A program made the position numbers and the translations under genes. From an uncultured candidate division WWE3 bacterium (GTDB lineage Bacteria > Patescibacteriota > WWE3 > UBA101185 > UBA10185): DNA of 64,000 bases. Positions 3,034-17,571 of this stretch are shown piece by piece. The stretch covers positions 5,382-69,381 of the forward strand of contig CAIRNR010000007.1 of the NCBI GenBank assembly GCA_903879985.1, read 5' to 3'. A model generated the notes under the pieces. The model saw only the letters and a program-made list of their open reading frames with translations, did not search any database and was not told the DNA's origin. Every line of letters starts with the position of its first letter. Within the stretch, counting starts at the first letter, position 1.

Positions 3034-3150
3034 ATTACTTGGGGTGGCTTCCTAACAAAGTTTAGAACTGCAATTGAGGAAAACATTAACTACATTCCCA
3101 AATATCCAGAGTTTGAAGATGTAGCCATTTTGAACAAGAGATTTATATAA
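3034..3150 (+). pseudogene. copy 1 of orphaned 3' fragment of the serine-recombinase gene (…ITWGGFLTKFRTAIEENINYIPKYPEFEDVAILNKRFI*), begins at att core TTGGGGTGGC
   Basis: About 105 bp, roughly 90% identical to 4888..5004. The substitutions are synonymous or conservative in the + frame. There is no start codon. The core matches the antisense 3' end of tRNA-His. Confidence 0.7.
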
Positions 3151-3279
3151 CATTGTTCTTGTAACGCTGAAAACCACTGCAGTAACAGGCTTTTACTTAT
3201 AAATAATTTTTGATACAATGACGAAGTCAAATAACTTGAGCTGGAATGCTCTAAACCTAGTAGATAAAGGAGAAATACA

Positions 3280-3420
3280 ATGTCCAAAAATGGTCCTGAC
3301 GATGATGAAGATGAGGACACCCCAGATCCCGAAGACAACGACGCTGATGGTATCGGTGATGACGGTCAAGACGACTCGGGCGACGATGACAGTGACGACA
3401 GCGATACCGACGATCAATAA
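3280..3420 (+). CDS. 46-aa extremely acidic (poly-Asp/Glu) mini-protein
   Basis: A perfect AAAGGAG RBS sits 8 nt upstream of the ATG. The product is MSKNGPDDDEDEDTPDPEDNDADGIGDDGQDDSGDDDSDDSDTDDQ*. It is followed directly by a strong terminator. It is absent from the ORF track because it is shorter than 60 aa. Confidence 0.55.
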   Translation: MSKNGPDDDEDEDTPDPEDNDADGIGDDGQDDSGDDDSDDSDTDDQ

Positions 3421-3444
3421 TCGCTGAACTCGCAAAGCACTAAG

Positions 3445-3490
3445 TAGCTAGACACCAACCTAAAAGTTATGTCTAGCTATTCTTTTATTT
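3445..3490. terminator. bidirectional rho-independent terminator
   Basis: A perfect 10-bp stem TAGCTAGACA/TGTCTAGCTA with a 15-nt loop, then TTCTTTTATTT. It sits between the stop of the acidic gene (+) and the stop of the M16 gene (-). Confidence 0.65.
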
Positions 3491-3500
3491 GGCGTAGGTT

Positions 3501-4793
3501 TTATAGGTTGATTTTAATGCTTTGTACGAAAGCGTCATCTACAGAACCTGCTAAAGATAAATACCAATTGTTAGCTGTAAGGTATTTTTCAGTTACTCTT
3601 TTTATGTCCTCAATTGTTACTGATTCTACTTCTTTAAGGTAATCCTCAATTGTCCATGTATCATTTGGGTAATATAAATCTCTATAGTCATGCACATCTA
3701 CCCATGCTTCAGAGGTCTGCATCTTAGTTTTAGTTGATTTTGTTAGTCTGTTTTTAACTAATTGCAGTTCATCTGCTGTTGAACCTTCACTAGCCATTCT
3801 TTTTATTTCAATGCAAATTATATCTAATACTTCTTGCAATTTGCTCTTTGCAACCGATGTAGTTATGTTAAACGCACCGCCATCAACAAAAGAACCATTA
3901 TTTGAATTTATAGAATAAATAAGACCACGTTCGTAACGTAATTTCTTTATCAAAACACCTGTTCTTCCCCCCGCTAAAATACTTGCTAATAGACTTAGAG
4001 TTCTAGTGTCACTATTAGCCATATTCGGAGTTCTAAAACTTAAGCGGGTCTCTATACTTTTATTATCAAAAAAAGCGTATTCAATAACCTTATCCCTAAA
4101 AACGGGTAAGTCATTTTCAAAGATAGGTCTTTCGCCTTGAGGTAAAGATAGGTGCTTTTCCAATAGAGGTAGTAAGGTATCTTTACTTAAATCACCTGCA
4201 ACAATTATTGTAGCCAACGAGCTTTTAATAAACTTATGATAAAAACCTAGCATATCCTCTTTAGTTATACTTCCAATTGATTCTGCCGTGCCCAGATTGG
4301 ATTTTCCTACAACCGTTTTCTGATAAACAAGTGGTCTGGATATTTCCACTAACATTTTACTTGGATTTGATTTTTTAGATTCTAGCTCACGCAAAATTGC
4401 CCCACGCTCTTTTTCAATAGTTTTTTCATCAAATAGTGCATTTAATAGCACATCTGATACCAGTCTAATAGCCGACTCCGTGTCATGTGGGTCACCAAGA
4501 GAAACATTTATATCTAGCTTATCTGAACTTGTTGAAGCACCTATAGAACCTCCTAAGTCCTCAATAAAACCTGCCATTATATCTTTTGTAGGATAGGTTT
4601 TAGTACCTGCTAAGAGCATATGTTCCATAAAATGTGCTAAACCCTCTTTGCCTTCTGGGTCAAATCTTGAACCTGCAATAAAAGTAATAAGTAGGTGTAC
4701 AGGCATTTTAGTTCTATTAAATAGCACTACATGCGTTCCAGACGATAAATTAAAGGTTTCTCTTTTTACATTGAAGTCTTCTAGGGTAAACAT
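3501..4793 (-). CDS. M16 family zinc metallopeptidase (pitrilysin/insulinase-like), active-site HxxEH present
   Basis: 430 aa. 'HFMEHM' is the inverted zinc-binding motif, and the downstream E-rich region is typical of M16. ATG was checked at 4793. Confidence 0.8.
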   Translation of the reverse strand: MFTLEDFNVKRETFNLSSGTHVVLFNRTKMPVHLLITFIAGSRFDPEGKEGLAHFMEHMLLAGTKTYPTKDIMAGFIEDLGGSIGASTSSDKLDINVSLGDPHDTESAIRLVSDVLLNALFDEKTIEKERGAILRELESKKSNPSKMLVEISRPLVYQKTVVGKSNLGTAESIGSITKEDMLGFYHKFIKSSLATIIVAGDLSKDTLLPLLEKHLSLPQGERPIFENDLPVFRDKVIEYAFFDNKSIETRLSFRTPNMANSDTRTLSLLASILAGGRTGVLIKKLRYERGLIYSINSNNGSFVDGGAFNITTSVAKSKLQEVLDIICIEIKRMASEGSTADELQLVKNRLTKSTKTKMQTSEAWVDVHDYRDLYYPNDTWTIEDYLKEVESVTIEDIKRVTEKYLTANNWYLSLAGSVDDAFVQSIKINL

Positions 4794-4887
4794 ATTGCTA
4801 TGATAACACTATTTAGTATGCTTATCCTTTATGTTAGTTCTAACCTTGATTTGGGGTAATTAGTTTTATGTTGATGTGACAATTTAG

Positions 4888-5004
4888 ATATTTTGGGGTG
4901 GCTTCTTAACAAAGTTTAGAACTGCTATTGAGGAAAACATTAACTACATTCCCAAATATCCAGAGTTTGAAGATGTAAGCATTTTGAGCAAACGCTTTAT
5001 TTAG
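4888..5004 (+). pseudogene. copy 2 of orphaned 3' fragment of the serine-recombinase gene (…IFWGGFLTKFRTAIEENINYIPKYPEFEDVSILSKRFI*), begins at att core TTTGGGGTGGC
   Basis: The 11-bp core is identical to 17392..17402 inside the tRNA-His 3' end. The reading frame continues the serine recombinase ORF exactly (…SIWGG|FLTKF…). Confidence 0.7.
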
Positions 5005-5185
5005 TCTTTTCCGCTCCTATCTTCTTATTAAGCTCTTTTCGCTGTTCTGGTGTCATAGCTATAAATCTATCTATCATAAAATTAGCCAACTTATACATAT
5101 GCTCAACAGTTTTTACGATTTGTTCATCAGACATGCCTTTTGCAGTATCTCCAAGTATTGATTTAGCCTTTTCTAGCGTTACCAT
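4997..5185 (-). CDS. small hypothetical protein (62 aa; alternative start at Met18)
   Basis: The ORF is open, but there is no clear RBS. It overlaps the next small gene by 23 nt. Confidence 0.3.
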   Translation of the reverse strand: MVTLEKAKSILGDTAKGMSDEQIVKTVEHMYKLANFMIDRFIAMTPEQRKELNKKIGAEKTK

Positions 5186-5340
5186 CTGTTTCTTTCTTTT
5201 GAATTGGTTTGGTAATAACCTTCATAAAGTTAAAAAGTCTGTTTGCTTTATCAAAGGCTTCTGCGTCACTAAGCTCAACTCCAACCTCTTTTTTATAAAT
5301 CTGCTTAAATTCATCTATCGCTTCTTTTGGTAGTGTCATA
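5163..5340 (-). CDS. small (~59 aa) protein, paralogue of 14027..14218 (shared '…F(K)xxYxKxxGVEL(S/T)xxExxxKANxLxNF…')
   Basis: The start is placed at the internal Met 'MTLPKEAIDEF'. It aligns with the 63-aa product at the other end of the element. Confidence 0.45.
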
Positions 5341-5418
5341 CATAAAATAATACCCTCATAATGGCACTTCTGGTATATAATCCTGCTTAGGTATAGCAAA
5401 ATTAGGATAAATATAAAG

Positions 5419-6834
5419 ATGATAACTAAGACAGACTTTTTAGCTTATATAGACGCACCACGCCACTTTTGGGCTTTAAAAAACAATAAGTATGACCTAA
5501 CCCTATCCGATTTTGATAAACACCTGATAGAACAAGGCTACATAGTAGAAACTAAGGCGAGGGAATACGCTCAAAGATATCTGTTACCCAATTATTCAAC
5601 TGATGAAACTGACTTAGTTTTTCAAAGAGCTTGTGAAGACGGTGAATTTCAAGCTAGGTCTGATATTTTGATTAGAAACTCAACTACTAATAAATGGGAT
5701 ATTTACGAAGTAAAAAGTGTAACCAAACCTGAACCAGAGCATTATTATGACGCATGTTTCCAAACAATCATCTTTGAAGAGAACTTGGATATTGCAAATG
5801 TTTTTATCCTGCATGTGAACAATGACTATATACGAGAAGGTGATTTTGACTTGGGTTTGTTTATAAAAACAGAAGATGTAACTCAAAAAGTGAAAGAGTT
5901 AAAGGAAGACACCTTGAATAAAATGAAGGATTGCCTGTTTTTAGTTAGTACAGATAACTATAAACTCGCTACAGAGTGCTTCAAACCTAAGGAATGCCAC
6001 TGCAAAGAGCTTTGCTTTCCTAACCTACCAGCAGATTCAATCTACAATCTATCAAGAATTACAGAAAAGAAGATTTTAGAACTACGAGATAACGACATTT
6101 TGAATATAACCGATATACCTGATGACTTTAGTCTAACTTCAAACCAAAGGGTACAGGTGGCGGTAGCCAAAAGAAACGAAATACTTATAAATAAACAAGC
6201 CATTAAAAATGATTTAGAAGCACTCACCTACCCTCTATATTTTCTTGACTATGAAACCTACCCCTCTGCAATTCCAATGTATGACGGGTATAAACCTTAT
6301 CAACATATGGTGTTTCAATACTCACTACATATTTTAAAAAACCCAGACGATAAAGAGCTACAACACTACGAGTATGTTGTAACAACGCAAAATGAACCGT
6401 GCAAAGAGCTTCTAACACACATGAAACAGCATATTGGGGAAACAGGCAGTGTAATTGTTTGGTATAAACCATTTGAATGTTCCAGAAACAAAGAGATGGC
6501 AGAACTATGCCCAGACTTTGCTGATTTTATGGAATCGGTTAACGACAGGGTATACGACCTAATGGACATATTTAAAAATAACTATTATGTAGACCCAAAG
6601 TTTAAGGGCAGTAACTCAATTAAAGATGTTTTGCCTGTTTTAGTTCCAGAACTCAACTACAAAGCCTTAGATATTCAAAGTGGCACAATGGCAATGACTG
6701 GTTGGTACGAGATAGTTTATGAGAATAAAGACCAAGTAGAAAAAGATAAAATACTAAAAAATCTTTTAACTTATTGTGAGCAAGATACTTTAGCGATGGT
6801 AAAAATTTTGGAGTTTCTGACCAAGTTGGCATAG
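5419..6834 (+). CDS. two-domain nuclease: N-terminal Cas4/RecB-like PD-(D/E)xK domain + C-terminal DEDDy-type 3'-5' exonuclease-like domain (DUF2779-like architecture)
   Basis: The N-terminal part has 'DILIRN…WDIYEVKSV' (D…EVK) followed by a Cys cluster 'CFKPKECHCKELC'. The C-terminal part has 'LDYET', 'DLMD' and 'YCEQD', which match the ExoI/II/III motifs. Confidence 0.55.
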   Translation: MITKTDFLAYIDAPRHFWALKNNKYDLTLSDFDKHLIEQGYIVETKAREYAQRYLLPNYSTDETDLVFQRACEDGEFQARSDILIRNSTTNKWDIYEVKSVTKPEPEHYYDACFQTIIFEENLDIANVFILHVNNDYIREGDFDLGLFIKTEDVTQKVKELKEDTLNKMKDCLFLVSTDNYKLATECFKPKECHCKELCFPNLPADSIYNLSRITEKKILELRDNDILNITDIPDDFSLTSNQRVQVAVAKRNEILINKQAIKNDLEALTYPLYFLDYETYPSAIPMYDGYKPYQHMVFQYSLHILKNPDDKELQHYEYVVTTQNEPCKELLTHMKQHIGETGSVIVWYKPFECSRNKEMAELCPDFADFMESVNDRVYDLMDIFKNNYYVDPKFKGSNSIKDVLPVLVPELNYKALDIQSGTMAMTGWYEIVYENKDQVEKDKILKNLLTYCEQDTLAMVKILEFLTKLA

Positions 6835-6902
6835 TTACCAATACTAAGGCTTTTCTAAAAACTATTAGACTTGTAGAATGTTAATGGAGTTATTATATAA
6901 AT

Positions 6903-9257
6903 ATGAACACTATAAAGATTAAGCAATATCTTGATAAACAACAAATAAAGGTTGTAGAACTATACGATTTTGAAAACAAGAAGGTAAGGTATTCAGAAAA
7001 AATCAAGGGTTGGAAAATTGATAAATTCAGAGGTGATGAGGAAATAGTACGAGCTTACATTTTAGCTAAGCTAGTTAACGAACTAGGCTACAAACCAGAA
7101 AACATTGAGCTTGAGAAAGAATACGATATTGGCAGACCTAAAGTAAATAAACCCCGAATTGATATTATTGTTAGAGACGATAACGGAAACGCTTTTCTGT
7201 ATATAGAGCTAAAAAGCCCCCTAGATTACGAAAAAGACAAAGACGAGGTAATAGAAAAACAACTATTTAACCTAGCGTCACAAGAACAAGGTCAAGGCAG
7301 AAAAGTAAAATACTTAACACTATATTCAGTAGAAATTGTTAATGACGAAATAAAAGATAAAACAATCCTTATTGATTATGAAAAATTTAACTCCTTTGAC
7401 CAATGGAAAGAGATACGAAATTATGCAGATGAACTACCAATACGCTACGGAAAAGCCCAGAAAGAACCTTATGTAAAGGGCGGAAAGAAAGATTTAGATA
7501 GCAATTTTTCTCATACACAGCTAGATGCTTTGCGAAAAAATTTACATAATGTACTTTGGGGTGGTGGTGGAACAGACGACAATGATGTATTTTCCTCACT
7601 GGTTAATATAATTCTTGCAAAAATCCAAGATGAGAGTGAGAAAAAAGTTAGTGAAGTTTATGATTTCCAAATCAGGTCATATCAAGACGGCGACAGCTTT
7701 GAGAGCAATGACCAACTATTTGACAGAATAAATGCACTATATAGGAGAGCCTTACACGATAGACTTAATGTTGATGGAGCTAAAATAGCCAAGTCTTACA
7801 TAATTGACGAAAATAAATTTTCTCTTAACAAATTAAAGTACACAGTTTCAGAGCTTGAGAGATTATCATTTGTTGAAGGAAAAAATCAACTTACTGGAAA
7901 AGACATTTTAGGAGACTTTTTTGAGGGCATAATTAGAGAAGGATTCAAACAAAGCAAAGGACAGTTTTTTACGCACATCAATGTAGTTAAGTTTATTCTT
8001 TGGGGGTTACAACTGGATAAATTAGCTACAGAAAAGGTAAATAAGGAGCAAGAATTACCTTATATTATAGACCCAAGTGCAGGTAGTGGGACTTTCCTTA
8101 TTGAGTACATGAAGTACATTACTCAAAATATAAAATACCGATTTAAGAACAAGCTAGATACTTCATATAATATCCAGAAAAAACTTCAATCATGGTTTTA
8201 CCCTGATAATTTTGAGAACAAATGGGCAGAGCAATACATATACGGTAGTGATATTAACTTTAATCTAGGTACAGCTACAAAAGTTAACATGATACTACAT
8301 GGCGATGGTTCAGCTAATGTATTTGTGAAAGACGGATTATTGCCTTTTAACTTCTATAAGAATTTATTAGCGGATAGCACACCAGATAATACCTACTATG
8401 ATAAAGATGTAAACGGTAAATTTGATGTAATAATAACCAATCCGCCATTTAGTGTTGACTTAGATAACGATACAAAGAAAAGTGTAAAAAAAGACTTTAT
8501 ATTTGGGGATAAGAAAAATTCAGAAAACCTATTTATTGAAAGATACTACCAACTACTTAAACCTAACGGTAGGTTTGGAATAGTATTACCCGAAAGTGTA
8601 TTTGATACTACGGAAAATAAGTATATCCGCTTATTTATATACAAATACTTCAAAATTAAGGCAATAGTCTCACTACCTCAATCCACATTTGAGCCTTTTA
8701 CTAGTACAAAAACCAGTCTATTGTTTGCTCAAAAGAAAACTAAAGCAGAGATACAAGAATGGGATAGCCTTTGGACAAAGTATTCAAATGAGTGGAATAC
8801 TCTGAAAACTAGGGCTAATAATCTAGTGGACACATACACAAGTGAGAAGGATAGAAATAAACTAACTTCTATTAGAGACCTTAACGAAGGCGAAGAAAAA
8901 GAGATTCTTAATAAAATACTCAAAAACTACATAGAAAAAGAAGATGCTAACCTTACACCTAAAGCACTTGTTGAAAAGTATGAAGGTGAATTAAAAGAGC
9001 TTTGTAAATACGATGCTGACACAAAAGAAGCCTATGGCTTTGTAAATACTTGGTGGGTATTTGGAGAGGTTTCAAAAGAACTAAATTATAAAATTCTTAT
9101 GACAGAGATAGCTAATGTCGGTTACAAGAGAAGTAAAAGAGGCGAAAAGCCTATGCCAAACGAGTTGTTTAGAGAAGATGATAAAGGACAGGTTTTAGTA
9201 GATGACGGGATACTAGAAACAGCTTTAGACTATCTTAGAAATTTAGAGTGGGAATAG
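6903..9257 (+). CDS. BcgI-like type IIB restriction-modification A subunit: N-terminal PD-ExK endonuclease domain fused to gamma-class N6-adenine DNA methyltransferase
   Basis: 784 aa. The N-terminus has 'IDIIVRD…FLYIELKSP' (D…ELK). Methyltransferase motif I 'DPSAGSGTFL' precedes motif IV 'IITNPPFS'. A specificity-subunit gene follows. Confidence 0.75.
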   Translation: MNTIKIKQYLDKQQIKVVELYDFENKKVRYSEKIKGWKIDKFRGDEEIVRAYILAKLVNELGYKPENIELEKEYDIGRPKVNKPRIDIIVRDDNGNAFLYIELKSPLDYEKDKDEVIEKQLFNLASQEQGQGRKVKYLTLYSVEIVNDEIKDKTILIDYEKFNSFDQWKEIRNYADELPIRYGKAQKEPYVKGGKKDLDSNFSHTQLDALRKNLHNVLWGGGGTDDNDVFSSLVNIILAKIQDESEKKVSEVYDFQIRSYQDGDSFESNDQLFDRINALYRRALHDRLNVDGAKIAKSYIIDENKFSLNKLKYTVSELERLSFVEGKNQLTGKDILGDFFEGIIREGFKQSKGQFFTHINVVKFILWGLQLDKLATEKVNKEQELPYIIDPSAGSGTFLIEYMKYITQNIKYRFKNKLDTSYNIQKKLQSWFYPDNFENKWAEQYIYGSDINFNLGTATKVNMILHGDGSANVFVKDGLLPFNFYKNLLADSTPDNTYYDKDVNGKFDVIITNPPFSVDLDNDTKKSVKKDFIFGDKKNSENLFIERYYQLLKPNGRFGIVLPESVFDTTENKYIRLFIYKYFKIKAIVSLPQSTFEPFTSTKTSLLFAQKKTKAEIQEWDSLWTKYSNEWNTLKTRANNLVDTYTSEKDRNKLTSIRDLNEGEEKEILNKILKNYIEKEDANLTPKALVEKYEGELKELCKYDADTKEAYGFVNTWWVFGEVSKELNYKILMTEIANVGYKRSKRGEKPMPNELFREDDKGQVLVDDGILETALDYLRNLEWE

Positions 9258-9258
9258 T

Positions 9259-10653
9259 ATGGCACTGAAACAGTTTACAACTGATTTTAAAAGCATCGGT
9301 AACCAAGAGTTTCTAAGACCAAATGTCGGCTATAGATACTTTTTTGATATTAAAAAATCAATGGTATTTAAAAACCCGATAACTACCCAATTGAAATACA
9401 TATTAAAACCATTACTTTCAAATAAAATTCCAAAGGGTGAATTGGATAGTAGAGAAATTCTAGTTGATTTGGCAAACATTGAAAGAAGATACAACTCACT
9501 AGTAAACCTAGAGGAAGTTAATCAGATTGGCTCGGACAAAAATATACTAAACTTCGGCGATATAGTAATACCTAAGATTCAACCACAAATGGGTAACATT
9601 TTTCTTAATACCGACCATACTAGGTATGTAGCTTCAACGGAGTTGCTTGAATACACGGTATGCCAAGACCATAACCCAGTATTTGTTTACTACTTAATAA
9701 CTTCCAAACAATTTCTAGCTGACCTTGAGAGGCTTGAGGGTGGAAAAACACACAGGAGAGTAAATCCCACAGACCTTTTAAAAATAAGAATACCTACCCT
9801 TAGTAAAAGACACCAAGACCAAGTAGTTACCGAAATTGAGCCAATAGCCATAAAAATTCAGGCACTTAAAACGGATATTAAACCACAACAAGAAATTATA
9901 GATAAAGTTTTTGTACGGGAATTTAAATTTAATAAAGCAAATTTTGACCAACTATCAAAAATTAAAATGTATGAAACTACTTTTTCAGAGTTCGCAAATA
10001 ACATAGATGTTCGCTATAGCGTCAAATTCCATAGAAATGCTGGTGCATTTGTCTTAGCGGAATTAAAGAAAGTAACTAACAAAAAGATTAAACACTTCAT
10101 TGCAGAACCAATTGTATTGGGTACTAGTGTATCCCCTTCGGATTACGACGAAAACGGCGATTATTACTACATATCAATGGCAAATATAAAGAACTGGAAA
10201 TTTGAAAACGATGACGCAAAACTTGTTTCAAATGAGTATTCAAAGAAAAACCAGAATAAAACAATAGCTTTAAACGATATTTTAATTGCCCGTTCTGGTG
10301 AGGGAACAATTGGGAAAGTTGCTTTAATAGAAGATGAGGAACTACTGGGCATTTTTGCGGACTTTACAATGAGAATTAAGTTAAAAGACTATAACCCAAC
10401 ATTTGCCTACTACTATTTTAGAACAACTTACTTTCAATACCTGATTGAAATTAACAAGAAAGGTTTAGGCAATAACACAAACATCTTCCCAAGCCAAATT
10501 CAAGAACTCCCCATGATGGATATTCCATTAGCTAGACAAGAAAAAATAGTTCAAGAGATTAAAAAAGAGCTAGAAGAACAAAATGTTATTAGAAGTTCTA
10601 TAGAGCAAGAAAGAGCAAAGATTGATGAAATTATTGAGAAGGCAATACAATGA
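9259..10653 (+). CDS. restriction-modification specificity (S/B) subunit with two target-recognition domains
   Basis: 464 aa. There are HsdS-type conserved spacers 'IRIPTLSKRHQDQVVTEIE' and 'IPLARQEKIVQEIKKELEEQ'. The start overlaps the stop of the upstream gene. Confidence 0.75.
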   Translation: MALKQFTTDFKSIGNQEFLRPNVGYRYFFDIKKSMVFKNPITTQLKYILKPLLSNKIPKGELDSREILVDLANIERRYNSLVNLEEVNQIGSDKNILNFGDIVIPKIQPQMGNIFLNTDHTRYVASTELLEYTVCQDHNPVFVYYLITSKQFLADLERLEGGKTHRRVNPTDLLKIRIPTLSKRHQDQVVTEIEPIAIKIQALKTDIKPQQEIIDKVFVREFKFNKANFDQLSKIKMYETTFSEFANNIDVRYSVKFHRNAGAFVLAELKKVTNKKIKHFIAEPIVLGTSVSPSDYDENGDYYYISMANIKNWKFENDDAKLVSNEYSKKNQNKTIALNDILIARSGEGTIGKVALIEDEELLGIFADFTMRIKLKDYNPTFAYYYFRTTYFQYLIEINKKGLGNNTNIFPSQIQELPMMDIPLARQEKIVQEIKKELEEQNVIRSSIEQERAKIDEIIEKAIQ

Positions 10654-11378
10654 ACAAATTTAAAACATCAGCTATAACCATACTCACCGAAACAGGTAAA
10701 CCCCTACACTATAAGGAAATAACCCGTCTAGCACTTGATAAAGGAATTTTAGTTACTGATGGTGCAACTCCTGACGCTTCAATGAACGCCCAAATAGTAA
10801 TGGATATAAAACAAAACGGTAAACTCTCAAATTTTATTAAGACAGAGCCTTCCACCTATGGTTTAAACCCAAATATACAAAAAGCTGTTAATGAGCCAGA
10901 GGAAGACATAGCGCAAGAGGAAAAACAAGCCGTAGATAGCGGTTATATCGGAAAAGCAGGAGAATACATAGTGTGCAGTGAACTGCTTTTTAGAGGATTT
11001 AATGCCAGTATTATGAGTGTTGATACAGGTGTTGATATTGTAGCTACCAAAGAAAGCCGACTGTATGGCGTACAAGTAAAGACTGCAAGACTTAATAAGT
11101 TCAATACTTATGTTTTTGATGTTCGCAAGGTTTCATTTGAGAGACACAGTAGTGGTAGTACATTTTATATTTTTGTTCTATATAGCGAGAAGAAAACTAA
11201 TTTTCTGATTCTCCCCTATTTTGAAATTGAAAAGAAAGTACATGACAAAGTTATACTAGAAGTTGGTCACGGACTACGCTACAGAATAAACATTAAACTG
11301 CGTAATGACAGCGTATATCTTGGAACTTTAGACAATGAGATGAACTACTTTTTGAATAATTGGGCGGTGCTAAAGTAA
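10650..11378 (+). CDS. Mrr-like restriction endonuclease (HARE-HTH/Mrr_N winged helix + Mrr-type PD-(D/E)xK catalytic domain)
   Basis: The N-terminal 'GKPLHYKEITRLALDKGILVTDGATPDASMNAQIV' fits HARE-HTH. The C-terminal 'GEYIVCSELL…VDTGVDIVATK…YGVQVKT' fits the Mrr_cat D-x-G-x-D…QxK pattern. There is an ATGA overlap with the S subunit. Confidence 0.55.
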   Translation: MNKFKTSAITILTETGKPLHYKEITRLALDKGILVTDGATPDASMNAQIVMDIKQNGKLSNFIKTEPSTYGLNPNIQKAVNEPEEDIAQEEKQAVDSGYIGKAGEYIVCSELLFRGFNASIMSVDTGVDIVATKESRLYGVQVKTARLNKFNTYVFDVRKVSFERHSSGSTFYIFVLYSEKKTNFLILPYFEIEKKVHDKVILEVGHGLRYRINIKLRNDSVYLGTLDNEMNYFLNNWAVLK

Positions 11379-11496
11379 ACAACTTATTTAGGTAAAAACT
11401 ATCCCCGTATGACAACAAATAAATAGATTGACTTATAAAATTGCGGTATAATAGCCGTATTCCTGCCTATGTTAGTTAACGAATATAAATATAAAA

Positions 11497-12681
11497 ATGA
11501 CAAAAAGACAATTTACAATATCGCACTTTGTGCAGAATATAAACATAGACTTGCTAGAGGCTTATTTTAATCAAGCTAATTTACCTTTCCCAAACAATTT
11601 AAAAACTACAGACAAAGACAAAAAACCAAATGCTCAAGATATTGAAACGCTTATAAACTCACTTGAGACTAAAGCTCAAGAAAAAATAAACAACGATTTC
11701 ATAGATATTAACGAGCTGTCCTATGACGGCGGTATTCTTTCAATTATTGATGTTGGAAATGTTTACAACATCAATTTAACCGAAGAACTAAGTAGCCTTG
11801 AAGATAACACGAACCAAGCACTTTACTGCTTTCTAAACCATAAAGGGGTATTTGAAAACGCCTCAAAAATAGCTTACTTTGAAAGACTTTCATCAAAAAC
11901 TGTTAGAAACGATATGGTTAAAAAGACAGCACAAGAAGTCTCAAATGAAGAAGTTAAAAATGCCTTAGAAACCGAACTTAAAACATATTTTAAACAAAAA
12001 GACGGTAGAGGCGAAAATTGTAAAATTGATGTTACAATCTACAAAAATAGAGTGTTTTATCGTGCGTATCCTCAAAACTATTCCCAGTTTTTATTTGATT
12101 ACGATGAAGAAGGTAAATACAGACGAAGTGTAGTTAAACCTGTCTTTGAGGTTATTTTTATCTATTATCCAGACGATGGTAGATTAGAACTTAGTGTTAA
12201 CTTTAGAAATAAACGCAGACGAGAGCTAATTGAAATTTTTAGCCGAATTGTTCTAAAAGATGACCGCACGATTAAAGACGAACTGCAAACTTACGATTTT
12301 GACAGGATAGTTTCTCCTGATTTTACTATGCCCACTAAACTTGAAGATAAAGTATCTTGGGCTTACCTAAAGCAATTAAGACTAAGCTACAGATATACTA
12401 CTGCAAGAAAAATTACACTTGAAGTTGATGACAAAAATACCGATGGAGCTAAAGCAATTCACGAAATGATTAAAGAGTATGGGCTTAATACCGAACAATT
12501 GTTTGTAACTCAAGCAACTTTCAAGATTAAGTTTGAAGGAGCAGGTAATAAGGGTAGCGTCACAGCTATGATTACATATCCCGACAAGTGTAACCTATCG
12601 GACATTGCAACACACCAATTGGCTAAAGATTATATAAAATACTGGAAATTGGAGTTATCAGATAATGAAGGAAATAACTAA
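11497..12681 (+). CDS. hypothetical protein (394 aa), no recognisable motifs
   Basis: A long ORF with a perfect TATAAT at 11447..11452 upstream. It overlaps the next gene by 17 nt. Confidence 0.5.
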   Translation: MTKRQFTISHFVQNINIDLLEAYFNQANLPFPNNLKTTDKDKKPNAQDIETLINSLETKAQEKINNDFIDINELSYDGGILSIIDVGNVYNINLTEELSSLEDNTNQALYCFLNHKGVFENASKIAYFERLSSKTVRNDMVKKTAQEVSNEEVKNALETELKTYFKQKDGRGENCKIDVTIYKNRVFYRAYPQNYSQFLFDYDEEGKYRRSVVKPVFEVIFIYYPDDGRLELSVNFRNKRRRELIEIFSRIVLKDDRTIKDELQTYDFDRIVSPDFTMPTKLEDKVSWAYLKQLRLSYRYTTARKITLEVDDKNTDGAKAIHEMIKEYGLNTEQLFVTQATFKIKFEGAGNKGSVTAMITYPDKCNLSDIATHQLAKDYIKYWKLELSDNEGNN

Positions 12682-13600
12682 TTTCGCCAATTATTTAGCG
12701 GTAAACCAAGATACTAGCTTTTCAGAAAGTATTTTGAAAGTAAATCTACCAACAATTTTCCAAACACTAGTAGATAGAGGCATTTTAGCCCCTACAACAC
12801 CCGTAGATAGCGTGAGGTGCAAAGAATGTGACTTAGACCACCTAGAACAAGTAATTGAAGTAAACCACCGATACTTTACAAAATGCGAATACAGCGAAGA
12901 CGCCTCGTTATCAGAAGTTCAACTAGACGAACTAAATGGCTATCGCTTTAGTTTGAGTGCTTTACTGGCTTGGATAGCAGAAACCTTAGTAACGCAAACC
13001 GACATTAAACAATTGAATGATGCTACTTGGGGTATAGGCAAAAAGGCTACACAGAACATTTATTTTATTAAATCAATTGACCAGAAAGAAGCTCAAAACG
13101 AAGTAAAGAAAATTAACACCGAAAATAACATATTTCTATGGTTGGGAGTAAATTCACCTGTTGGGTATTCAACAACCGAACTAGTATCAATACAGGAAGT
13201 AATTAAAATTAGTAGTAAAGGCTTGGAAGTTCAAGCTATTAAAGTTAAATCTAAAAAAGCTAAACCAAACCAGAAAGATATTGTCTTAGATAAAGATATT
13301 GTAATAACAAACAATTTCTATCTTCTACTTAACCTTGAAAACGGTGCTTTTAATTATAAGGTAAAAACATTACCACAAACATATAGAATAGTTAGATACC
13401 TGTATGACCAAAGAAAATATGGTAAAGCGTATACCTCTAAAGAGCTAAGCGAAGCTCTACAATTGGATAATCCAAAGGTTATTCCAACCAGAATAAAAGA
13501 ACTAAACAACAAATGTGAGGAACATAAAGTCAAAAGTATTGTACTCACATACCCAAATAATACATGGGCATTAAACCCAGATTTAACTTGTTTTAATTAA
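12665..13600 (+). CDS. hypothetical protein (311 aa), possible C-terminal winged-helix
   Basis: GGAG sits 10 nt upstream of the ATG. The gene is translationally coupled to 11497..12681. 'YRIVRYLYDQRKYGKAYTSKELSEAL' looks wHTH-like. Confidence 0.5.
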   Translation: MKEITNFANYLAVNQDTSFSESILKVNLPTIFQTLVDRGILAPTTPVDSVRCKECDLDHLEQVIEVNHRYFTKCEYSEDASLSEVQLDELNGYRFSLSALLAWIAETLVTQTDIKQLNDATWGIGKKATQNIYFIKSIDQKEAQNEVKKINTENNIFLWLGVNSPVGYSTTELVSIQEVIKISSKGLEVQAIKVKSKKAKPNQKDIVLDKDIVITNNFYLLLNLENGAFNYKVKTLPQTYRIVRYLYDQRKYGKAYTSKELSEALQLDNPKVIPTRIKELNNKCEEHKVKSIVLTYPNNTWALNPDLTCFN

Positions 13601-13674
13601 GGTCACTAAAGTAGTCACAAAATCATAATGTGACTTAACATTTCCATAAATAAGAAAAATATAGATGTAGTAAT

Positions 13675-13706
13675 AGAGCCATATAGTAAGGCTCTTTTTT
13701 GTTTTT
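13675..13706 (+). terminator. rho-independent terminator after the 311-aa gene
   Basis: An AGAGCC…GGCTCT hairpin followed by TTTTTTGTTTTT. Confidence 0.6.
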
Positions 13707-13773
13707 ACCTAAAAACTTGACAGAGCATTTTTGTGACCAATATCACTAACGCATAGAAAGTTCAAAGATAAAC

Positions 13774-14037
13774 ATGAAAGAAAATAAAGATTTATTTACA
13801 ACATATAACCTAAACTTTTCGGCAGTTCTTATAGCTAGTGGCATTAAGTTACAAGGAGTTAATAACGGGCTTGGGTCTAAGTCTCTCTTTTGTTTTGAAA
13901 ATTCTCTAAAAATACAGGATATAAACGACAAGTATTGGAGAAAAGAATTAAAGATTGAACCTCAATTACTCTTTGATAGCTTGAAATTCCTTAAAAACAG
14001 ATTGTATAGCGGTTTGGAGAATAACGATGGTTTCTAG
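13774..14037 (+). CDS. small hypothetical protein (87 aa)
   Basis: The ORF is preceded by a TTGACA -35-like hexamer at ~13717. It overlaps the next gene by 11 nt. Confidence 0.4.
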   Translation: MKENKDLFTTYNLNFSAVLIASGIKLQGVNNGLGSKSLFCFENSLKIQDINDKYWRKELKIEPQLLFDSLKFLKNRLYSGLENNDGF

Positions 14038-14218
14038 AGAAGGCTTAGTGAAATTTAAAGAACTTTACGCCAAGCGTTATGGAGTTGAACTTACTGAAAA
14101 GGAAGTCTCCGAAAAAGCTAACCAATTACTTAATTTCTATCGGGCAGTTTTTAGAGAACCAACAAATATAAAAATAAATATAACCTATGAGCAAAAAATA
14201 CGAAGTAAGAAAAATTAA
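14027..14218 (+). CDS. small protein (63 aa), paralogue of 5163..5340
   Basis: Shares the conserved 'YxKRYGVELTEKEVSEKANQLLNF' block with the protein at the other end of the element. Confidence 0.45.
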   Translation: MVSREGLVKFKELYAKRYGVELTEKEVSEKANQLLNFYRAVFREPTNIKINITYEQKIRSKKN

Positions 14219-14603
14219 AACAAAAAGGTCTTACACCTTTAAAGAAATAGCAGATTTGTTTGATGTCCATGTACGCACTATTCAAGCATGGCATGTAGAC
14301 GGATTAGTAACTCTTGAAGGTAGTAACAATCCATATCTAGTTATGGGTATTGATGTACAAAACTATATTAAACAGCAAAAACAAAAGCACAAAGTAGCTC
14401 TTAAAGAAAATGAGTTTTACTGCATAAGCTGTAGAAAAGCTGTTACCCCAACAGAAGTTTTTTCAAATTCAAATGGTATCAAAATGGGTGGTAATAAACA
14501 GTCGGTTATATTGAGCGGTGTTTGCCCAACTTGTAACCGAAAAGTGAACCGATTTACAACAAACGAACAGTCTATTTTAGAGGGGAAAAGCAATACTATA
14601 TAG
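14187..14603 (+). CDS. HTH + C-terminal zinc-ribbon protein (excisionase/recombination-directionality-factor or regulator candidate)
   Basis: 'YTFKEIADLFDVHVRTIQAWHVDGL' is MerR/Xis-like HTH. It also carries CxxC…CxxC ('CISCRK…CPTCNRK'). It lies immediately upstream of the two recombinase genes. Confidence 0.45.
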   Translation: MSKKYEVRKIKTKRSYTFKEIADLFDVHVRTIQAWHVDGLVTLEGSNNPYLVMGIDVQNYIKQQKQKHKVALKENEFYCISCRKAVTPTEVFSNSNGIKMGGNKQSVILSGVCPTCNRKVNRFTTNEQSILEGKSNTI

Positions 14604-14659
14604 GCACTAGAATATCCCTTTGAAGACTGACATTAGTAATTAGTTATTTAGGAAACAAT

Positions 14660-15745: not shown

Positions 15746-15791
15746 TATAATTAACTTGATACTATAAACTTATAATTGTAAGGTTATTGTA

Positions 15792-17471
<1,680 letters not shown>

Positions 17472-17571
17472 ATAATAACCCTGCCATTATATCAGCAATG
17501 CGGATACGTCGCTAGGACGACTAAACAGCAATGCTGATGCGTCGCTAAGCCATGTAGCCACCAACGGCAAC

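What the first reader, a model, noticed from the sequence alone, without database searches (positions are those of the whole stretch)
5419..11378. Defence cargo: BcgI-like type IIB R-M (endonuclease-methyltransferase fusion + 2-TRD specificity subunit) flanked by a Cas4/DEDDy dual nuclease and an Mrr-like HARE-HTH endonuclease
The 784-aa protein has an N-terminal PD-ExK module (IDIIVRD…YIELK) fused to a gamma-class m6A methyltransferase (DPSAGSGTFL then NPPF). It is followed, with overlapping stop and start, by an HsdS-like protein with two TRDs and no HsdR anywhere. That is the BcgI (type IIB) arrangement rather than type I. Immediately downstream, translationally coupled by an ATGA overlap, is a 242-aa HARE-HTH + Mrr_cat-like protein. 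Upstream is a 471-aa protein joining a Cas4-like Fe-S PD-(D/E)xK nuclease to a DEDDy exonuclease-like domain. Three distinct nuclease systems are stacked on one small element.
Basis: partly seen in the sequence, partly recalled or inferred. Interest (0 to 1): 0.55.

Follow-up and report, generated by a model that had tools for sequence, protein, structure and literature searches.

The report
BsaXI-type restriction cassette on tRNA-His island
The region holds a swappable three-gene restriction-modification cassette (a close relative of the known Type IIB enzyme BsaXI, its specificity subunit, and an extra add-on nuclease) sitting in the cargo slot of a 12.5-kb mobile island in a small-genome (CPR) bacterium; it is a well-documented example of known kinds of system rather than a new kind.

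Summary
The four ORFs exist exactly as described. The 784-aa protein is a BsaXI-family Type IIB RM fusion: PDB 8w0p_A, E=1.6e-275. The BsaXI catalytic residues and the methyltransferase motifs are invariant across 25 homologues. It belongs to the published short "knob-only, no paddle" clade. The 464-aa protein is a two-TRD S subunit with new TRDs. No HsdR was found in the island or among the ten largest other ORFs, so Type I is refuted.

An empty site shows a 12,500-bp island (4903-17402) bounded by the 11-bp repeat TTTGGGGTGGC at the 3' end of tRNA-His. Sister islands share the backbone, including the DUF2779 Cas4-like/exonuclease gene, at 45-88% aa identity. They carry unrelated Type III-like R-M cargo in the same slot. 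So DUF2779 is backbone, not cargo.

The 242-aa protein is HARE-HTH plus an I-Ssp6803I/Hjc-like PD-(D/E)xK domain, not Mrr. Its family (58-89% identical, mostly CPR) is almost always the tightly coupled last gene of R-M operons of every type. Its role as a modification-discriminating nuclease is inferred, not shown.

Verdict: new member of known kinds, with moderate interest.

The parts
4892..4902 (.). attL: left copy of the 11-bp direct repeat TTTGGGGTGGC
   Evidence: Empty-site contig L136 joins window 4902 and 17392 through a single copy of this 11-mer at 100% flank identity.
4903..17402 (.). 12,500-bp integrative island, including one repeat copy, inserted at the 3' end of tRNA-His
   Evidence: Empty site L136. 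Sister islands L144 and L146 lie at the same tRNA-His; L146 also shows the adjacent SBP_bac_5 gene; L147 shares the backbone but ends before the site.
4997..5399 (-). Two small overlapping backbone ORFs (62 aa at 4997-5185; 78 aa at 5163-5399), function unknown
   Evidence: ORF list. Conserved in sister island L144 at 55-65% aa identity. No PHROG hit.
5419..6834 (+). DUF2779 protein (471 aa): N-terminal Cas4/RecB-like PD-(D/E)xK with a Cys cluster, plus a C-terminal DEDDy-type RNase H-like exonuclease. It is an island backbone gene.
   Evidence: Pfam DUF2779 5.5e-41. TIGR03491 and Cas4 hits are weak. Motifs. About 71% aa identity at the same position in sister islands with different cargo. Literature: PMC3985635, PMC13621843.
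6881..11412 (.). Cargo slot: nucleotide homology to sister islands stops at about 6880 and resumes at about 11413-11463
   Evidence: blastn of the island against L144, L146 and L147. Border sequences.
6903..9257 (+). Type IIB RM subunit (784 aa), BsaXI family, short knob-only clade
   Evidence: PDB 8w0p_A RM.BsaXI E=1.6e-275, residues 8-758 aligned to 10-773 of 916. Pfam. 25 homologues (complete ORFs) at about 63-78% identity across phyla were aligned.
7020..7277 (+). PD-(D/E)xK endonuclease core of RM (aa 40-125; E71, D87, E102, K104)
   Evidence: These residues align to BsaXI E73, D90, E105 and K107, which are essential for cleavage (PMC11997821). They are invariant in 25 homologues, and this is the most conserved segment at 89% mean identity.
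7893..8762 (+). Gamma-class N6-adenine methyltransferase domain of RM (aa 331-620; motif I DPSAGSGTF at 390, motif IV NPPF at 513)
   Evidence: N6_Mtase 2.8e-31. Motifs are invariant in homologues, except motif I residue 393 which is A or S.
8763..9107 (+). 'Knob' helical insertion of RM (about aa 621-735). No C-terminal paddle follows: only 26 residues remain after the BsaXI-aligned region.
   Evidence: The alignment to BsaXI runs through its knob, residues 626-742 (PMC11997821 sections 18 and 29).
9259..10653 (+). Specificity subunit S (464 aa): TRD1-CR1-TRD2-CR2
   Evidence: PADLOC Specificity_I 2.6e-26 in two stretches. S.BsaXI 8w0p_C E=2e-4, mainly in the conserved regions. Internal repeat. 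An S gene was detected downstream of RM in 27 of the 40 related loci, most of the rest having little or no downstream flank; TRDs are swapped between loci.
10650..11378 (+). HARE-HTH (aa 4-72), acidic linker, then PD-(D/E)xK nuclease (aa 98-242; E105, D125/D129, Q142-x-K144). Operon-terminal gene with an ATGA overlap with S.
   Evidence: Pfam. AF2 model with pLDDT 83. Best Foldseek hits are I-Ssp6803I, D212, the SPARDA nuclease and Hjc. Conserved residues from alignment A1. Family context.
11497..13600 (+). Backbone pair orf394 (11497-12681) and orf311 (12665-13600), function unknown
   Evidence: 68% and 45% aa identity in sister islands. PHROG 37634 1.2e-25 for orf394. AF2 pLDDT 83 but no significant PDB fold match.
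13774..14603 (+). Backbone small genes: DUF5659 (87 aa), orf63, and orf138 (HTH-like)
   Evidence: They show 69-89% aa identity in sister islands.
14660..15745 (+). Tyrosine recombinase (361 aa)
   Evidence: Phage_integrase 8.4e-11. 84% aa identity in sister islands.
15792..17459 (+). Large serine recombinase (555 aa); the ORF runs through attR into the antisense of tRNA-His
   Evidence: Resolvase, Recombinase and Zn_ribbon_recom hits. About 82% aa identity in sister islands. Coordinates compared with the tRNA.
17392..17402 (.). attR: right copy of TTTGGGGTGGC, lying within the 3' end of tRNA-His
17394..17470 (-). tRNA-His (GTG), the integration target
   Evidence: ARAGORN and Rfam. Intact and identical in the empty site.

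Best explanation
Window 6903-11378 is a three-gene restriction-modification cassette. It occupies the cargo slot of a 12.5-kb integrative island (4903-17402) inserted at the 3' end of tRNA-His in a CPR/Patescibacteria bacterium.

Genes 1 and 2 form a BsaXI-family Type IIB enzyme. By homology to the solved (RM)2S BsaXI complex, two RM subunits are expected to sit on one S subunit. The two TRDs of S would read an asymmetric bipartite site. The gamma-class NPPF methyltransferase domains would methylate one adenine per strand using SAM. On unmodified DNA the N-terminal PD-(D/E)xK domains (E71, D87, E102, K104) would cut on both sides of the site. The enzyme belongs to the already described short clade that has the knob but lacks BsaXI's C-terminal paddle. 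The TRDs differ from BsaXI's, so the recognition sequence is new and unknown.

Gene 3 is translationally coupled to S. It is a HARE-HTH plus minimal PD-(D/E)xK nuclease from a conserved family that rides as the last gene of R-M operons of all types. Its most likely role (inferred) is a separate modification-discriminating, Type IV-like or second-line endonuclease co-expressed with the R-M system. It is probably not a subunit of the IIB enzyme.

The upstream DUF2779 Cas4-like/DEDDy protein is not cargo. It belongs to the conserved island backbone, together with orf394, orf311, three small genes, a tyrosine recombinase and a large serine recombinase.

What is shown: gene content, homology, conserved catalytic residues, island borders, the empty site, and cargo replacement between sister islands. 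What is inferred: enzyme stoichiometry and cutting pattern (from BsaXI), and the roles of the HARE-HTH nuclease and DUF2779.
For: RM subunit:
- RM.BsaXI 8w0p_A matches at E=1.6e-275 over residues 8-758.
- BsaXI residues E73, D90, E105 and K107 are essential for cleavage (PMC11997821). They align to E71, D87, E102 and K104, which are invariant in 25 homologues. The nuclease core is the most conserved segment at 89% mean identity.
- NPPF and D, P, S of motif I are invariant; motif I residue 393 is A or S.
- The short (<800 aa) knob-only clade is described in PMC11997821.

S subunit:
- PADLOC 2.6e-26, internal repeat and weak similarity to S.BsaXI.
- RM and S are adjacent in nearly all 40 related loci, with TRD swapping between loci.

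Type I excluded:
- No HsdR was found in the island or among the ten largest other ORFs of the window.

Island:
- Empty site L136 has 100% identical flanks joined through one TTTGGGGTGGC.

Backbone versus cargo:
- Sister islands L144, L146 and L147 share DUF2779 (71%), orf394 (68%), orf311 (45%), the small genes (69-89%), the Tyr recombinase (84%) and the Ser recombinase (82%); L144 and L146 are shown at the same tRNA-His. They carry N6_N4_Mtase plus ResIII cargo instead.
- Nucleotide homology breaks at about 6880 and resumes at about 11413-11463.

HARE-HTH nuclease:
- Pfam hits, and Foldseek best hits I-Ssp6803I, Hjc and SPARDA nuclease.
- In 80 metagenomic loci the upstream gene is on the same strand in 70 of 71 cases, with a median gap of about 4 nt.
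- Upstream genes include HsdR, HsdM, S, MmeI-like, single-chain RMS, Type ISP, D12, N6_N4 and Dam methyltransferases, and AlwI.
- 39 of 42 loci with at least 4 kb of upstream flank have an R-M-associated gene upstream (HsdR, HsdM, S, a methyltransferase or DUF2130). No locus has one downstream.
- Members 80-87% identical to the window protein sit behind MmeI-like, Type ISP, Dam and S/M partners.
- Related BsaXI-like operons carry GmrSD, Mrr_cat or OLD genes in equivalent embedded positions.
- The literature predicts a modification-discriminating role for HARE-HTH-REase fusions located next to modification genes (PMC4738411, PMC10853773).
Against: - No biochemical or methylome data exist for this locus. 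The recognition site, double-sided cutting and methylation are all extrapolated from BsaXI.
- In BsaXI, paddle residues D816 and E823 are needed for cleavage, and this protein has no paddle. Cutting by the short clade has not been demonstrated.
- The role of the HARE-HTH nuclease rests on context and on published predictions only. The PDDEXK_5 score is exactly at the Pfam cut-off (26.1 bits).
- Its strict 3'-terminal, translationally coupled position could also mean real functional dependence on R-M systems rather than independence.
- DUF2779 homologues also occur in defence neighbourhoods on plasmids and near other HARE genes. A defence role for the backbone copy is therefore not excluded.
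Confidence: 0.8

Rival explanations
1. The pair is a degenerate Type I system, or a solitary HsdM-like methyltransferase with an unrelated N-terminal extension. It would methylate only and have no endonuclease function.
For: PADLOC and NCBIfam also give Type I MTase and MAD2/MAD5 hits. The protein lacks the paddle, whose residues D816 and E823 are needed for BsaXI cleavage.
Against: Full-length homology to RM.BsaXI, including the nuclease domain, at E=1.6e-275. The four catalytic residues are invariant, and the nuclease core is the most conserved segment across 25 homologues from many phyla. No HsdR is present. The MAD2 score of 174.9 is far below its cut-off of 720. The paddle residues are not conserved even among paddle-bearing homologues (PMC11997821).
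Confidence: 0.07
2. The 242-aa HARE-HTH nuclease is an integral third subunit of this paddle-less Type IIB enzyme. It would supply the second strand-cleaving activity or the function that the paddle provides in BsaXI.
For: ATGA translational coupling to S. The S-HARE order recurs after BsaXI-like S genes in L011 (remnant), L081 and L093. How BsaXI makes double-strand breaks is unresolved.
Against: A HARE homologue was detected in only one of the 40 short-clade RM loci found with the RM query, and that one is truncated. The same nuclease, at 80-87% identity, follows MmeI-like, Type ISP, Dam and Type I operons. Other BsaXI-like operons carry unrelated genes in this position.
Confidence: 0.07
3. 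The 242-aa gene is a selfish, free-standing homing-type endonuclease, or a component of small serine-recombinase elements. It would hitch-hike at the 3' end of operons and contribute nothing to defence.
For: The nuclease domain is closest in fold to the homing endonuclease I-Ssp6803I, and the Pfam family PDDEXK_5 is named intron-associated. Sequence conservation is unusually high (58-89%) across varied contexts. The closest relatives L053, L054, L055, L057 and L058 are directly followed by large serine recombinases.
Against: The upstream partners are overwhelmingly R-M genes (39 of 42 loci), not random operons. The polarity is strict, with no R-M gene ever downstream. No intron or conserved target-site context was seen. 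Published context analyses link HARE-HTH-REase fusions to modification systems (PMC4738411, PMC10853773).
Confidence: 0.15
4. All three nucleases (DUF2779, the IIB enzyme and the HARE-HTH nuclease) are independent defence systems accumulated as cargo.
For: DUF2779 homologues on plasmids sit beside Qat, AAA-ATPase and PLD genes. They also lie near other HARE genes in L065, L099, L107 and L117. A 2026 paper discusses an immunity link for a DUF2779 protein (PMC13621843).
Against: DUF2779 is retained at about 71% identity in the same position in sister islands whose cargo differs. It lies outside the segment where nucleotide homology breaks. No PADLOC model matches it beyond a weak Cas4 hit.
Confidence: 0.2

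Closest known systems
BsaXI (Type IIB R-M, Geobacillus stearothermophilus; PDB 8w0p/8w2p/8w2q; PMC11997821, PMC9159934)
   Same: RM gene precedes the S gene. The order is N-terminal PD-(D/E)xK domain, helical connector, gamma-class N6A methyltransferase, then knob. The RM proteins align over about 750 residues at E=1.6e-275. The catalytic E/D/E/K tetrad and the SAM and NPPF motifs are conserved. S has the TRD1-CR1-TRD2-CR2 layout and a similar length (464 vs 476 aa).
   Different: This protein lacks the C-terminal paddle (BsaXI residues about 775-916, including D816 and E823), being 784 aa against 916 aa. The S TRDs are unrelated, with only the conserved regions aligning (E=2e-4), so the specificity differs from AC(N5)CTCC. 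A third, coupled HARE-HTH nuclease gene follows S here. The papers read here describe BsaXI as a two-gene (RM, S) unit; genes downstream of S were not examined.
Short (<800 aa) knob-only BsaXI homologues (PMC11997821, Fig. 9)
   Same: Same length class and the same predicted domain set (R, H, M and knob, with no paddle). 40 relatives at 63-84% identity were found across CPR, Proteobacteria, Spirochaetes, Nitrospirae and an archaeon.
   Different: None of these has been characterised biochemically. This member has its own TRD pair and sits on a defined mobile island.
BcgI (the archetypal RM + S Type IIB enzyme)
   Same: Two-gene architecture: an endonuclease-methyltransferase fusion plus a separate two-TRD specificity subunit, with no translocase.
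   Different: According to PMC11997821, the BcgI-group methyltransferase domains resemble M.EcoKI, have a C-terminal helical tail and lack a knob. BsaXI and this protein form a different structural group. Direct sequence similarity to BcgI was not tested here.
HARE-HTH-REase fusions linked to modification systems (Aravind & Iyer 2012, as summarised in PMC4738411 and PMC10853773)
   Same: N-terminal HARE-HTH fused to a restriction-endonuclease-fold domain. The gene lies immediately downstream of DNA-modification genes, mostly N6A methyltransferases.
   Different: The family is known only from computational predictions. Here the partner systems usually already have their own nuclease (HsdR, IIG, IIB). 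The family is unusually conserved regardless of the partner's type and specificity, and it is concentrated in CPR bacteria.
I-Ssp6803I / archaeal Hjc / SPARDA DREN-type minimal PD-(D/E)xK nucleases
   Same: Best structural matches of the C-terminal domain: Foldseek E 2e-4 to 1e-3, with target-normalised TM-score up to about 0.6. The Pfam family is PDDEXK_5.
   Different: There is no intron context, no Argonaute partner and no evidence of junction resolution. This protein has an added HARE-HTH domain and an acidic linker.
Defence-cargo hotspots of integrative elements and 'immigration control' loci (R-M operons with embedded Type IV enzymes); this comparison is from general knowledge
   Same: A conserved mobile backbone with one slot where whole defence operons are exchanged. 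Type IV-like genes are co-located with R-M genes.
   Different: Here the platform is a 12.5-kb tRNA-His island of CPR bacteria. It carries both a tyrosine and a large serine recombinase and a backbone DUF2779 nuclease.

Membership tests
Type IIB R-M, RM + S class (BsaXI lineage) | Single polypeptide with an N-terminal PD-(D/E)xK endonuclease and a gamma-class N6-adenine methyltransferase | tested here: met
   HSDR_N_2 6e-9 plus N6_Mtase 2.8e-31. Alignment to RM.BsaXI at E=1.6e-275. E71, D87, E102, K104 and NPPF are invariant, and motif I is invariant except residue 393, A or S.
Type IIB R-M, RM + S class (BsaXI lineage) | Separate specificity subunit with two TRDs and two conserved helical regions, encoded next to RM | tested here: met
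   PADLOC Specificity_I 2.6e-26 in two stretches. Internal repeat at E=7e-5. S.BsaXI at E=2e-4 in the conserved regions. Conserved synteny.
Type IIB R-M, RM + S class (BsaXI lineage) | No ATP-dependent translocase (HsdR or Res) partner | tested here: met
   No helicase or ResIII hit in any of the ten island ORFs scanned with Pfam or in the ten largest other ORFs of the window.
Type IIB R-M, RM + S class (BsaXI lineage) | Cleavage on both sides of a bipartite site, with methylation of both strands | not testable with these tools
   Needs in vitro digestion mapping and SMRT or ONT methylome data.
BsaXI proper (long form) | C-terminal antiparallel two-helix 'paddle' with D816 and E823 | tested here: not met
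   The alignment ends at BsaXI residue 773 of 916, and only 26 residues remain in the window protein. This matches the paddle-less short clade of PMC11997821.
Type I R-M | HsdR translocase-nuclease subunit alongside HsdM and HsdS | tested here: not met
   HsdR was not found. The methyltransferase carries its own nuclease domain.
MADS (MAD2 / MAD5) | Equivalog-level match to MAD2 and MAD5, and the presence of the other mad genes | tested here: not met
   MAD2 scores 174.9 bits against a cut-off of 720. MAD5 scores 54 against 400. No other mad genes are present in the island.
Mrr-type Type IV endonuclease | Mrr_cat (PF04471) catalytic domain | tested here: not met
   No Mrr_cat hit. The hit is PDDEXK_5. 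The best fold matches are I-Ssp6803I, D212, Hjc and the SPARDA nuclease.
HARE-HTH-REase fusion proteins of modification systems | HARE-HTH domain fused to a restriction-endonuclease-fold domain | tested here: met
   HARE-HTH 6.6e-15 and PDDEXK_5 9.5e-6, the latter at the cut-off. E105, D125/D129 and Q142-x-K144 are conserved in alignment A1.
HARE-HTH-REase fusion proteins of modification systems | Genomic linkage to DNA-modification genes | tested here: met
   39 of 42 loci with at least 4 kb of upstream flank have R-M-associated genes upstream on the same strand, and 31 of 42 have a detectable methyltransferase.
HARE-HTH-REase fusion proteins of modification systems | Discrimination of modified from unmodified DNA | not testable with these tools
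   Only predicted in the literature (PMC4738411, PMC10853773, PMC11037411).
PD-(D/E)xK homing endonucleases (I-Ssp6803I type) | Encoded within, or associated with, a group I intron and a defined homing site | tested here: not met
   The gene is free-standing at the end of operons with varied upstream genes. The window-wide Rfam scan at gathering thresholds found only five tRNAs and no intron family.
DUF2779 (Cas4-like + 3'-5' exonuclease fusion) | PF11074 match plus an N-terminal PD-(D/E)xK (DUF83/Cas4-like) region | tested here: met
   DUF2779 5.5e-41. TIGR03491 1.6e-6 and Cas4 0.006 are both weak. D82, E97-x-K99, D277-x-E279 and Y452-x3-D456 are present.
DUF2779 (Cas4-like + 3'-5' exonuclease fusion) | Four-Cys Fe-S cluster as in canonical Cas4 | tested here: inconclusive
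   C72 plus C187, C193, C195 and C199 flank the nuclease core, but the spacing differs from C-x2-C-x5-C. Cluster binding cannot be tested here.

The most novel reading that the evidence does not exclude
The 242-aa HARE-HTH/PD-(D/E)xK protein may represent a specificity-independent auxiliary nuclease that CPR bacteria append as the translationally coupled last gene to R-M operons of any type (I, IIB, IIG, ISP, III-like, or solitary methyltransferases). Rather than being a stand-alone Type IV enzyme or a hitch-hiker, it would work with whatever R-M system precedes it. For example, it might read adenine-methylation status generically through HARE-HTH, or it might finish off DNA already nicked or cut by the primary enzyme. 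That would be a new, portable 'second-stage' module of restriction.
Probability: 0.25. Interest if true: 0.65.

Novelty: new member of a known kind. Interest (0 to 1): 0.4.

Why it matters
- It adds a precisely delimited natural example of a paddle-less BsaXI-type enzyme with a new TRD pair. This bears on the open question of how Type IIB enzymes make double-strand breaks without the paddle, and it offers possible new specificities for 2b-RAD-type tools.
- Island-positive and empty-site alleles are both present among related metagenome assemblies. Where both occur in one sample, the methylation motif could be read directly from long-read metagenomes.
- The island family shows that whole R-M operons are exchanged at one fixed slot of a small mobile backbone in CPR bacteria. 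These organisms rarely have CRISPR-Cas (PMC6509639).
- The survey of the HARE-HTH nuclease family gives a concrete and testable pattern for an uncharacterised but very widespread protein: it is always the last gene, it almost always sits behind R-M genes, and its sequence is independent of partner type.

Tried and rejected
- **Type I or MADS reading.** Rejected. No HsdR was found, and the MAD2 and MAD5 scores are far below their cut-offs.
- **Mrr_cat assignment for the 242-aa protein.** Rejected.
- **First att search.** A generic direct-repeat search of 4700-17600 listed nothing useful among the 20 families shown. The 11-bp repeat was found by eye and then proven with the empty-site contig.
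- **Long-form comparison.** L028, the only long RM in the loci set, has an 80-aa insertion in the knob region rather than a paddle. It could not be used to map the paddle deletion.
- **Cognate Type II REase idea for the HARE nuclease.** Rejected, because 80-87% identical copies follow methyltransferases and R-M systems of different families.
- **Inverted-cassette idea.** L144 and L146 cargos turned out to be different Type III-like systems, not one cassette in two orientations.
- **Searches that found little.** The plasmid and phage collections have no HARE homologue in plasmids and no DUF2779 homologue in phages. Only 5 viral contigs carry HARE-family relatives.
- **orf394 structure and fold search.** No significant match; the best was RdgC/CENP-N at E about 3e-3 with TM below 0.3.
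- **Aravind & Iyer 2012.** The full text is not held, so it is cited only through later summaries.
- **Promoter and terminator scan of the island.** Uninformative; the counts were at or below shuffle expectation.

Full report
**1. Observation**

The window has four co-directional ORFs at exactly the stated coordinates: 5419-6834 (471 aa), 6903-9257 (784 aa), 9259-10653 (464 aa) and 10650-11378 (242 aa). The quoted motifs are real. The S gene and the 242-aa gene overlap in ATGA. RM and S are separated by one base (TAG-T-ATG) and do not overlap.

**2. The RM-S pair**

Pfam finds HSDR_N_2, N6_Mtase and Eco57I in the 784-aa protein. A sequence search of the PDB gives RM.BsaXI (8w0p_A) at E=1.6e-275. 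Residues 8-758 align to 10-773 of the 916 BsaXI residues.

BsaXI is a characterised Type IIB enzyme that forms an (RM)2S heterotrimer (PMC11997821, PMC9159934). The four nuclease residues whose mutation abolishes BsaXI cleavage are E73, D90, E105 and K107. They align to E71, D87, E102 and K104 here. In an alignment with 25 homologues from the genome collection these four residues are invariant. NPPF is invariant too, and so is motif I apart from residue 393 (A or S). The nuclease core (aa 40-125) is the most conserved part of the protein at 89% mean identity. This argues that the nuclease is under purifying selection.

The protein ends 26 residues after the aligned region, so it lacks BsaXI's C-terminal paddle. 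The BsaXI structure paper already describes a clade of homologues shorter than 800 aa that have the knob but no paddle. This protein belongs to that clade.

The 464-aa protein has no Pfam hit. It matches PADLOC Type I specificity-subunit models at up to 2.6e-26 in two stretches. It has an internal repeat (residues 135-217 and 375-458, E=7e-5). It matches S.BsaXI weakly, mainly in the conserved helical regions. Its TRDs, and hence its recognition sequence, therefore differ from BsaXI's.

Across 40 related loci from many phyla the RM protein is 63-84% identical over the matched stretch. An S gene was detected downstream of RM in 27 of them, and most of the others have little or no downstream flank. 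Different loci share only one TRD with the window's S, which indicates TRD swapping.

No HsdR or other helicase was found in the island or among the ten largest other ORFs of the window. The NCBIfam MAD2 and MAD5 hits are far below their cut-offs. By sequence the lineage is BsaXI rather than BcgI.

**3. The element**

The 3' end of tRNA-His (17394-17470, minus strand) contains TTTGGGGTGGC at 17392-17402. The same 11-mer lies at 4892-4902.

Looking up contigs that encode the flanking M16 peptidase returned L136. In this contig, window 18151..17392 is joined directly to 4902..3119 at 100% identity through a single copy of the 11-mer, and the tRNA-His is intact. This is an empty site. The island is therefore 4903-17402, or 12,500 bp.

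The host is a CPR/Patescibacteria bacterium. The best named GatB relatives are WWE3 and Patescibacteria at 60-65% identity. The longest contig carrying these genes is 715 kb.

**4. Backbone versus cargo**

Homologues of orf394 led to sister islands L144, L146 and L147. In L144 and L146 the island lies against the same tRNA-His, and L146 also shows the adjacent SBP_bac_5 gene. L147 has the same backbone but ends before the site. They share the following genes:
- the two small left-end ORFs;
- DUF2779 (about 71% aa identity);
- orf394 (68%) and orf311 (45%);
- DUF5659, orf63 and orf138 (69-89%);
- the tyrosine recombinase (84%) and the large serine recombinase (about 82%).

Between DUF2779 and orf394 these islands carry Type III-like N6_N4_Mtase plus ResIII operons. 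The two operons are in either orientation and are unrelated to each other. A more distant relative, L145, carries GmrSD, two C5 methyltransferases and an HNH protein.

Nucleotide homology to the window stops at about 6880 and resumes at about 11413-11463. The slot therefore holds exactly RM, S and the 242-aa gene. DUF2779 lies outside the slot and is a backbone gene.

**5. The DUF2779 protein**

Pfam DUF2779 matches at 5.5e-41, with weak RecB-like and Cas4 hits. The sequence shows D82, E97-x-K99, a cluster of cysteines, D277-x-E279 and Y452-x3-D456.

The literature places DUF2779 in the 3'-5' exonuclease clade of RNase H-like proteins, fused to a Cas4-like domain (PMC3985635). It also describes a Mycoplasma member as a Cas4-exonuclease fusion (PMC13621843).

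The function of this protein is unknown. Plasmid homologues lie in defence-type neighbourhoods. Four of the 80 HARE loci have a DUF2779 gene nearby. Its conservation with the backbone argues for an element function, but a defence role is not excluded.

**6. The 242-aa protein**

*Domains and fold.* Pfam gives HARE-HTH (6.6e-15) and PDDEXK_5 (at the cut-off), with no Mrr_cat hit. An AlphaFold model built from 50 homologues has pLDDT 83 and shows two domains joined by a disordered acidic linker. Foldseek places the nuclease domain nearest to I-Ssp6803I, fusellovirus D212, SPARDA nuclease domains and archaeal Hjc. The conserved residues are E105, D125/D129 and Q142-x-K144.

*Family size.* The family has more than 1000 members at 58-89% identity with lengths of mostly 241-247 aa. 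The named members are mostly CPR. At the level of 50%-identity clusters there are 94 representatives at E<=1e-30 and 3846 at E<=1e-3. The latter include nuclease-only proteins and proteins with multiple HARE-HTH repeats.

*Genomic context.* In 80 metagenomic loci the upstream gene is on the same strand in 70 of 71 cases, with a median gap of about 4 nt. Pfam classification of the upstream genes gives:
- Type I HsdR (10 loci);
- HsdM, S, MmeI-like or single-chain RMS proteins (11);
- DUF2130 (9), which itself follows HsdR wherever the contig extends far enough upstream;
- D12, N6_N4 and Dam methyltransferases (8);
- Type ISP and AlwI (one each);
- Shedu, Schlafen-like, trypsin-like, DUF6602, a reverse transcriptase and others.

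Of 42 loci with at least 4 kb of upstream flank, 39 have an R-M-associated gene (HsdR, HsdM, S, a methyltransferase or DUF2130) upstream on the same strand, and 31 have a detectable methyltransferase. No locus has an R-M-associated gene downstream.

*What this rules out.* Members 80-87% identical to the window protein follow MmeI-like, Type ISP, Dam and S/M partners. The protein therefore cannot be the cognate sequence-specific REase of its neighbours. A HARE homologue was detected in only one of the 40 RM-anchored loci, and that copy is truncated (L011). Two further BsaXI-like S-HARE pairs exist, in L081 and L093. It is therefore not a general subunit of short BsaXI-type enzymes.

*Most likely role.* Other BsaXI-like operons carry GmrSD, Mrr_cat, OLD, Bro-N or trypsin-like genes embedded at equivalent places. 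Published comparative work already notes HARE-HTH-REase fusions immediately downstream of modification genes and predicts a modification-discriminating role (PMC4738411, PMC10853773, PMC11037411). The most likely role is a co-expressed, Type IV-like or second-line nuclease. This is inference, not demonstration.

**7. Verdict**

The flanking-gene framing is revised: one nuclease is island backbone, one is the Type IIB enzyme, and one is an operon-terminal add-on from a widespread family.

All components belong to kinds that have already been described. Two things go beyond the routine. First, the island is cleanly delimited and shows cargo replacement between sister islands. Second, the context pattern of the HARE-HTH nuclease family has been quantified.

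Noticed in passing
window 15792-17459 vs 17392-17470: The large serine recombinase ORF reads through attR and ends inside the antisense of tRNA-His. Its last 18 codons or so are encoded by host DNA and would change on excision. The same overlap occurs in sister islands L144 and L146.
   Followed up: partly
window 6856-6865 and 11393-11402: The 10-mer TAAAAACTAT occurs three times in the window (0.87 expected). Two of the copies sit at the two borders of the cargo slot. The left copy lies in conserved backbone and is also present in L146. The right copy is not seen in L144 or L146. This could be chance or a remnant of cassette recombination.
   Followed up: partly
L144 4239-8866; L146 4521-8905; L145 3138-8335: Sister islands with the same backbone carry different cargo in the same slot. 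L144 and L146 hold two unrelated Type III-like N6_N4_Mtase plus ResIII operons in opposite orientations. L145 holds GmrSD, two C5 methyltransferases and an HNH/MTaX1 protein, together with a 78-aa DUF2779 remnant.
   Followed up: partly
window 14660-15745 and 15792-17459; L025 15504-18314: A tyrosine recombinase directly followed by a large serine recombinase is conserved in the island family. A distant version of the pair (28% and 24% aa identity) also follows a BsaXI-like RM-S operon in L025. What the second recombinase does is unknown.
   Followed up: no
window 11497-13600: The backbone pair orf394 and orf311 has no Pfam, PADLOC or NCBIfam assignment. orf394 matches PHROG 37634 (unknown function, 1.2e-25). 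It gives a confident AF2 model (pLDDT 83) with no significant PDB fold match; the weak RdgC/CENP-N resemblances have TM below 0.3. Only 19 homologues were found.
   Followed up: partly
L010, L012, L015, L024, L025, L033, L037 (between RM and S): Short-clade BsaXI-like operons often have a gene inserted between RM and S. The inserts are Bro-N (2 loci), a trypsin-like peptidase, an OLD-family AAA_15+TOPRIM protein (2 loci), Mrr_cat and an IS200 transposase. Trypsin-like genes also recur directly upstream of HARE genes in Type I operons.
   Followed up: partly
L070, L084, L089, L092, L102, L103, L106, L111, L126: In 9 of 71 loci the gene immediately before the HARE nuclease is a DUF2130 protein. 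Wherever the contig extends far enough upstream (7 of the 9), that protein itself follows a Type I HsdR. This is a recurrent HsdR-DUF2130-HARE trio of unknown meaning.
   Followed up: no
L053-L058: Among the closest relatives of the window's HARE nuclease (80-87% identity), L053, L054, L055, L057 and L058 are directly followed by a large serine recombinase (split in L057 and L058). This suggests small 'R-M + HARE + recombinase' elements. Those recombinases, where compared (L053-L055), are only 22-25% identical to the window's.
   Followed up: partly
L146 1-2351: To the left of the sister island in L146 lie a second large serine recombinase (37% identical to the window's) and a Toprim_2 protein. 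Another element may be integrated in tandem there.
   Followed up: no
window 10872-10940 (aa 75-97 of the 242-aa protein): The linker between the HARE-HTH and nuclease domains is disordered (pLDDT below 50), variable in sequence and consistently rich in Glu and Asp across the family. From general knowledge, this resembles the HARE-HTH plus acidic tail layout of the RNA polymerase delta subunit.
   Followed up: no
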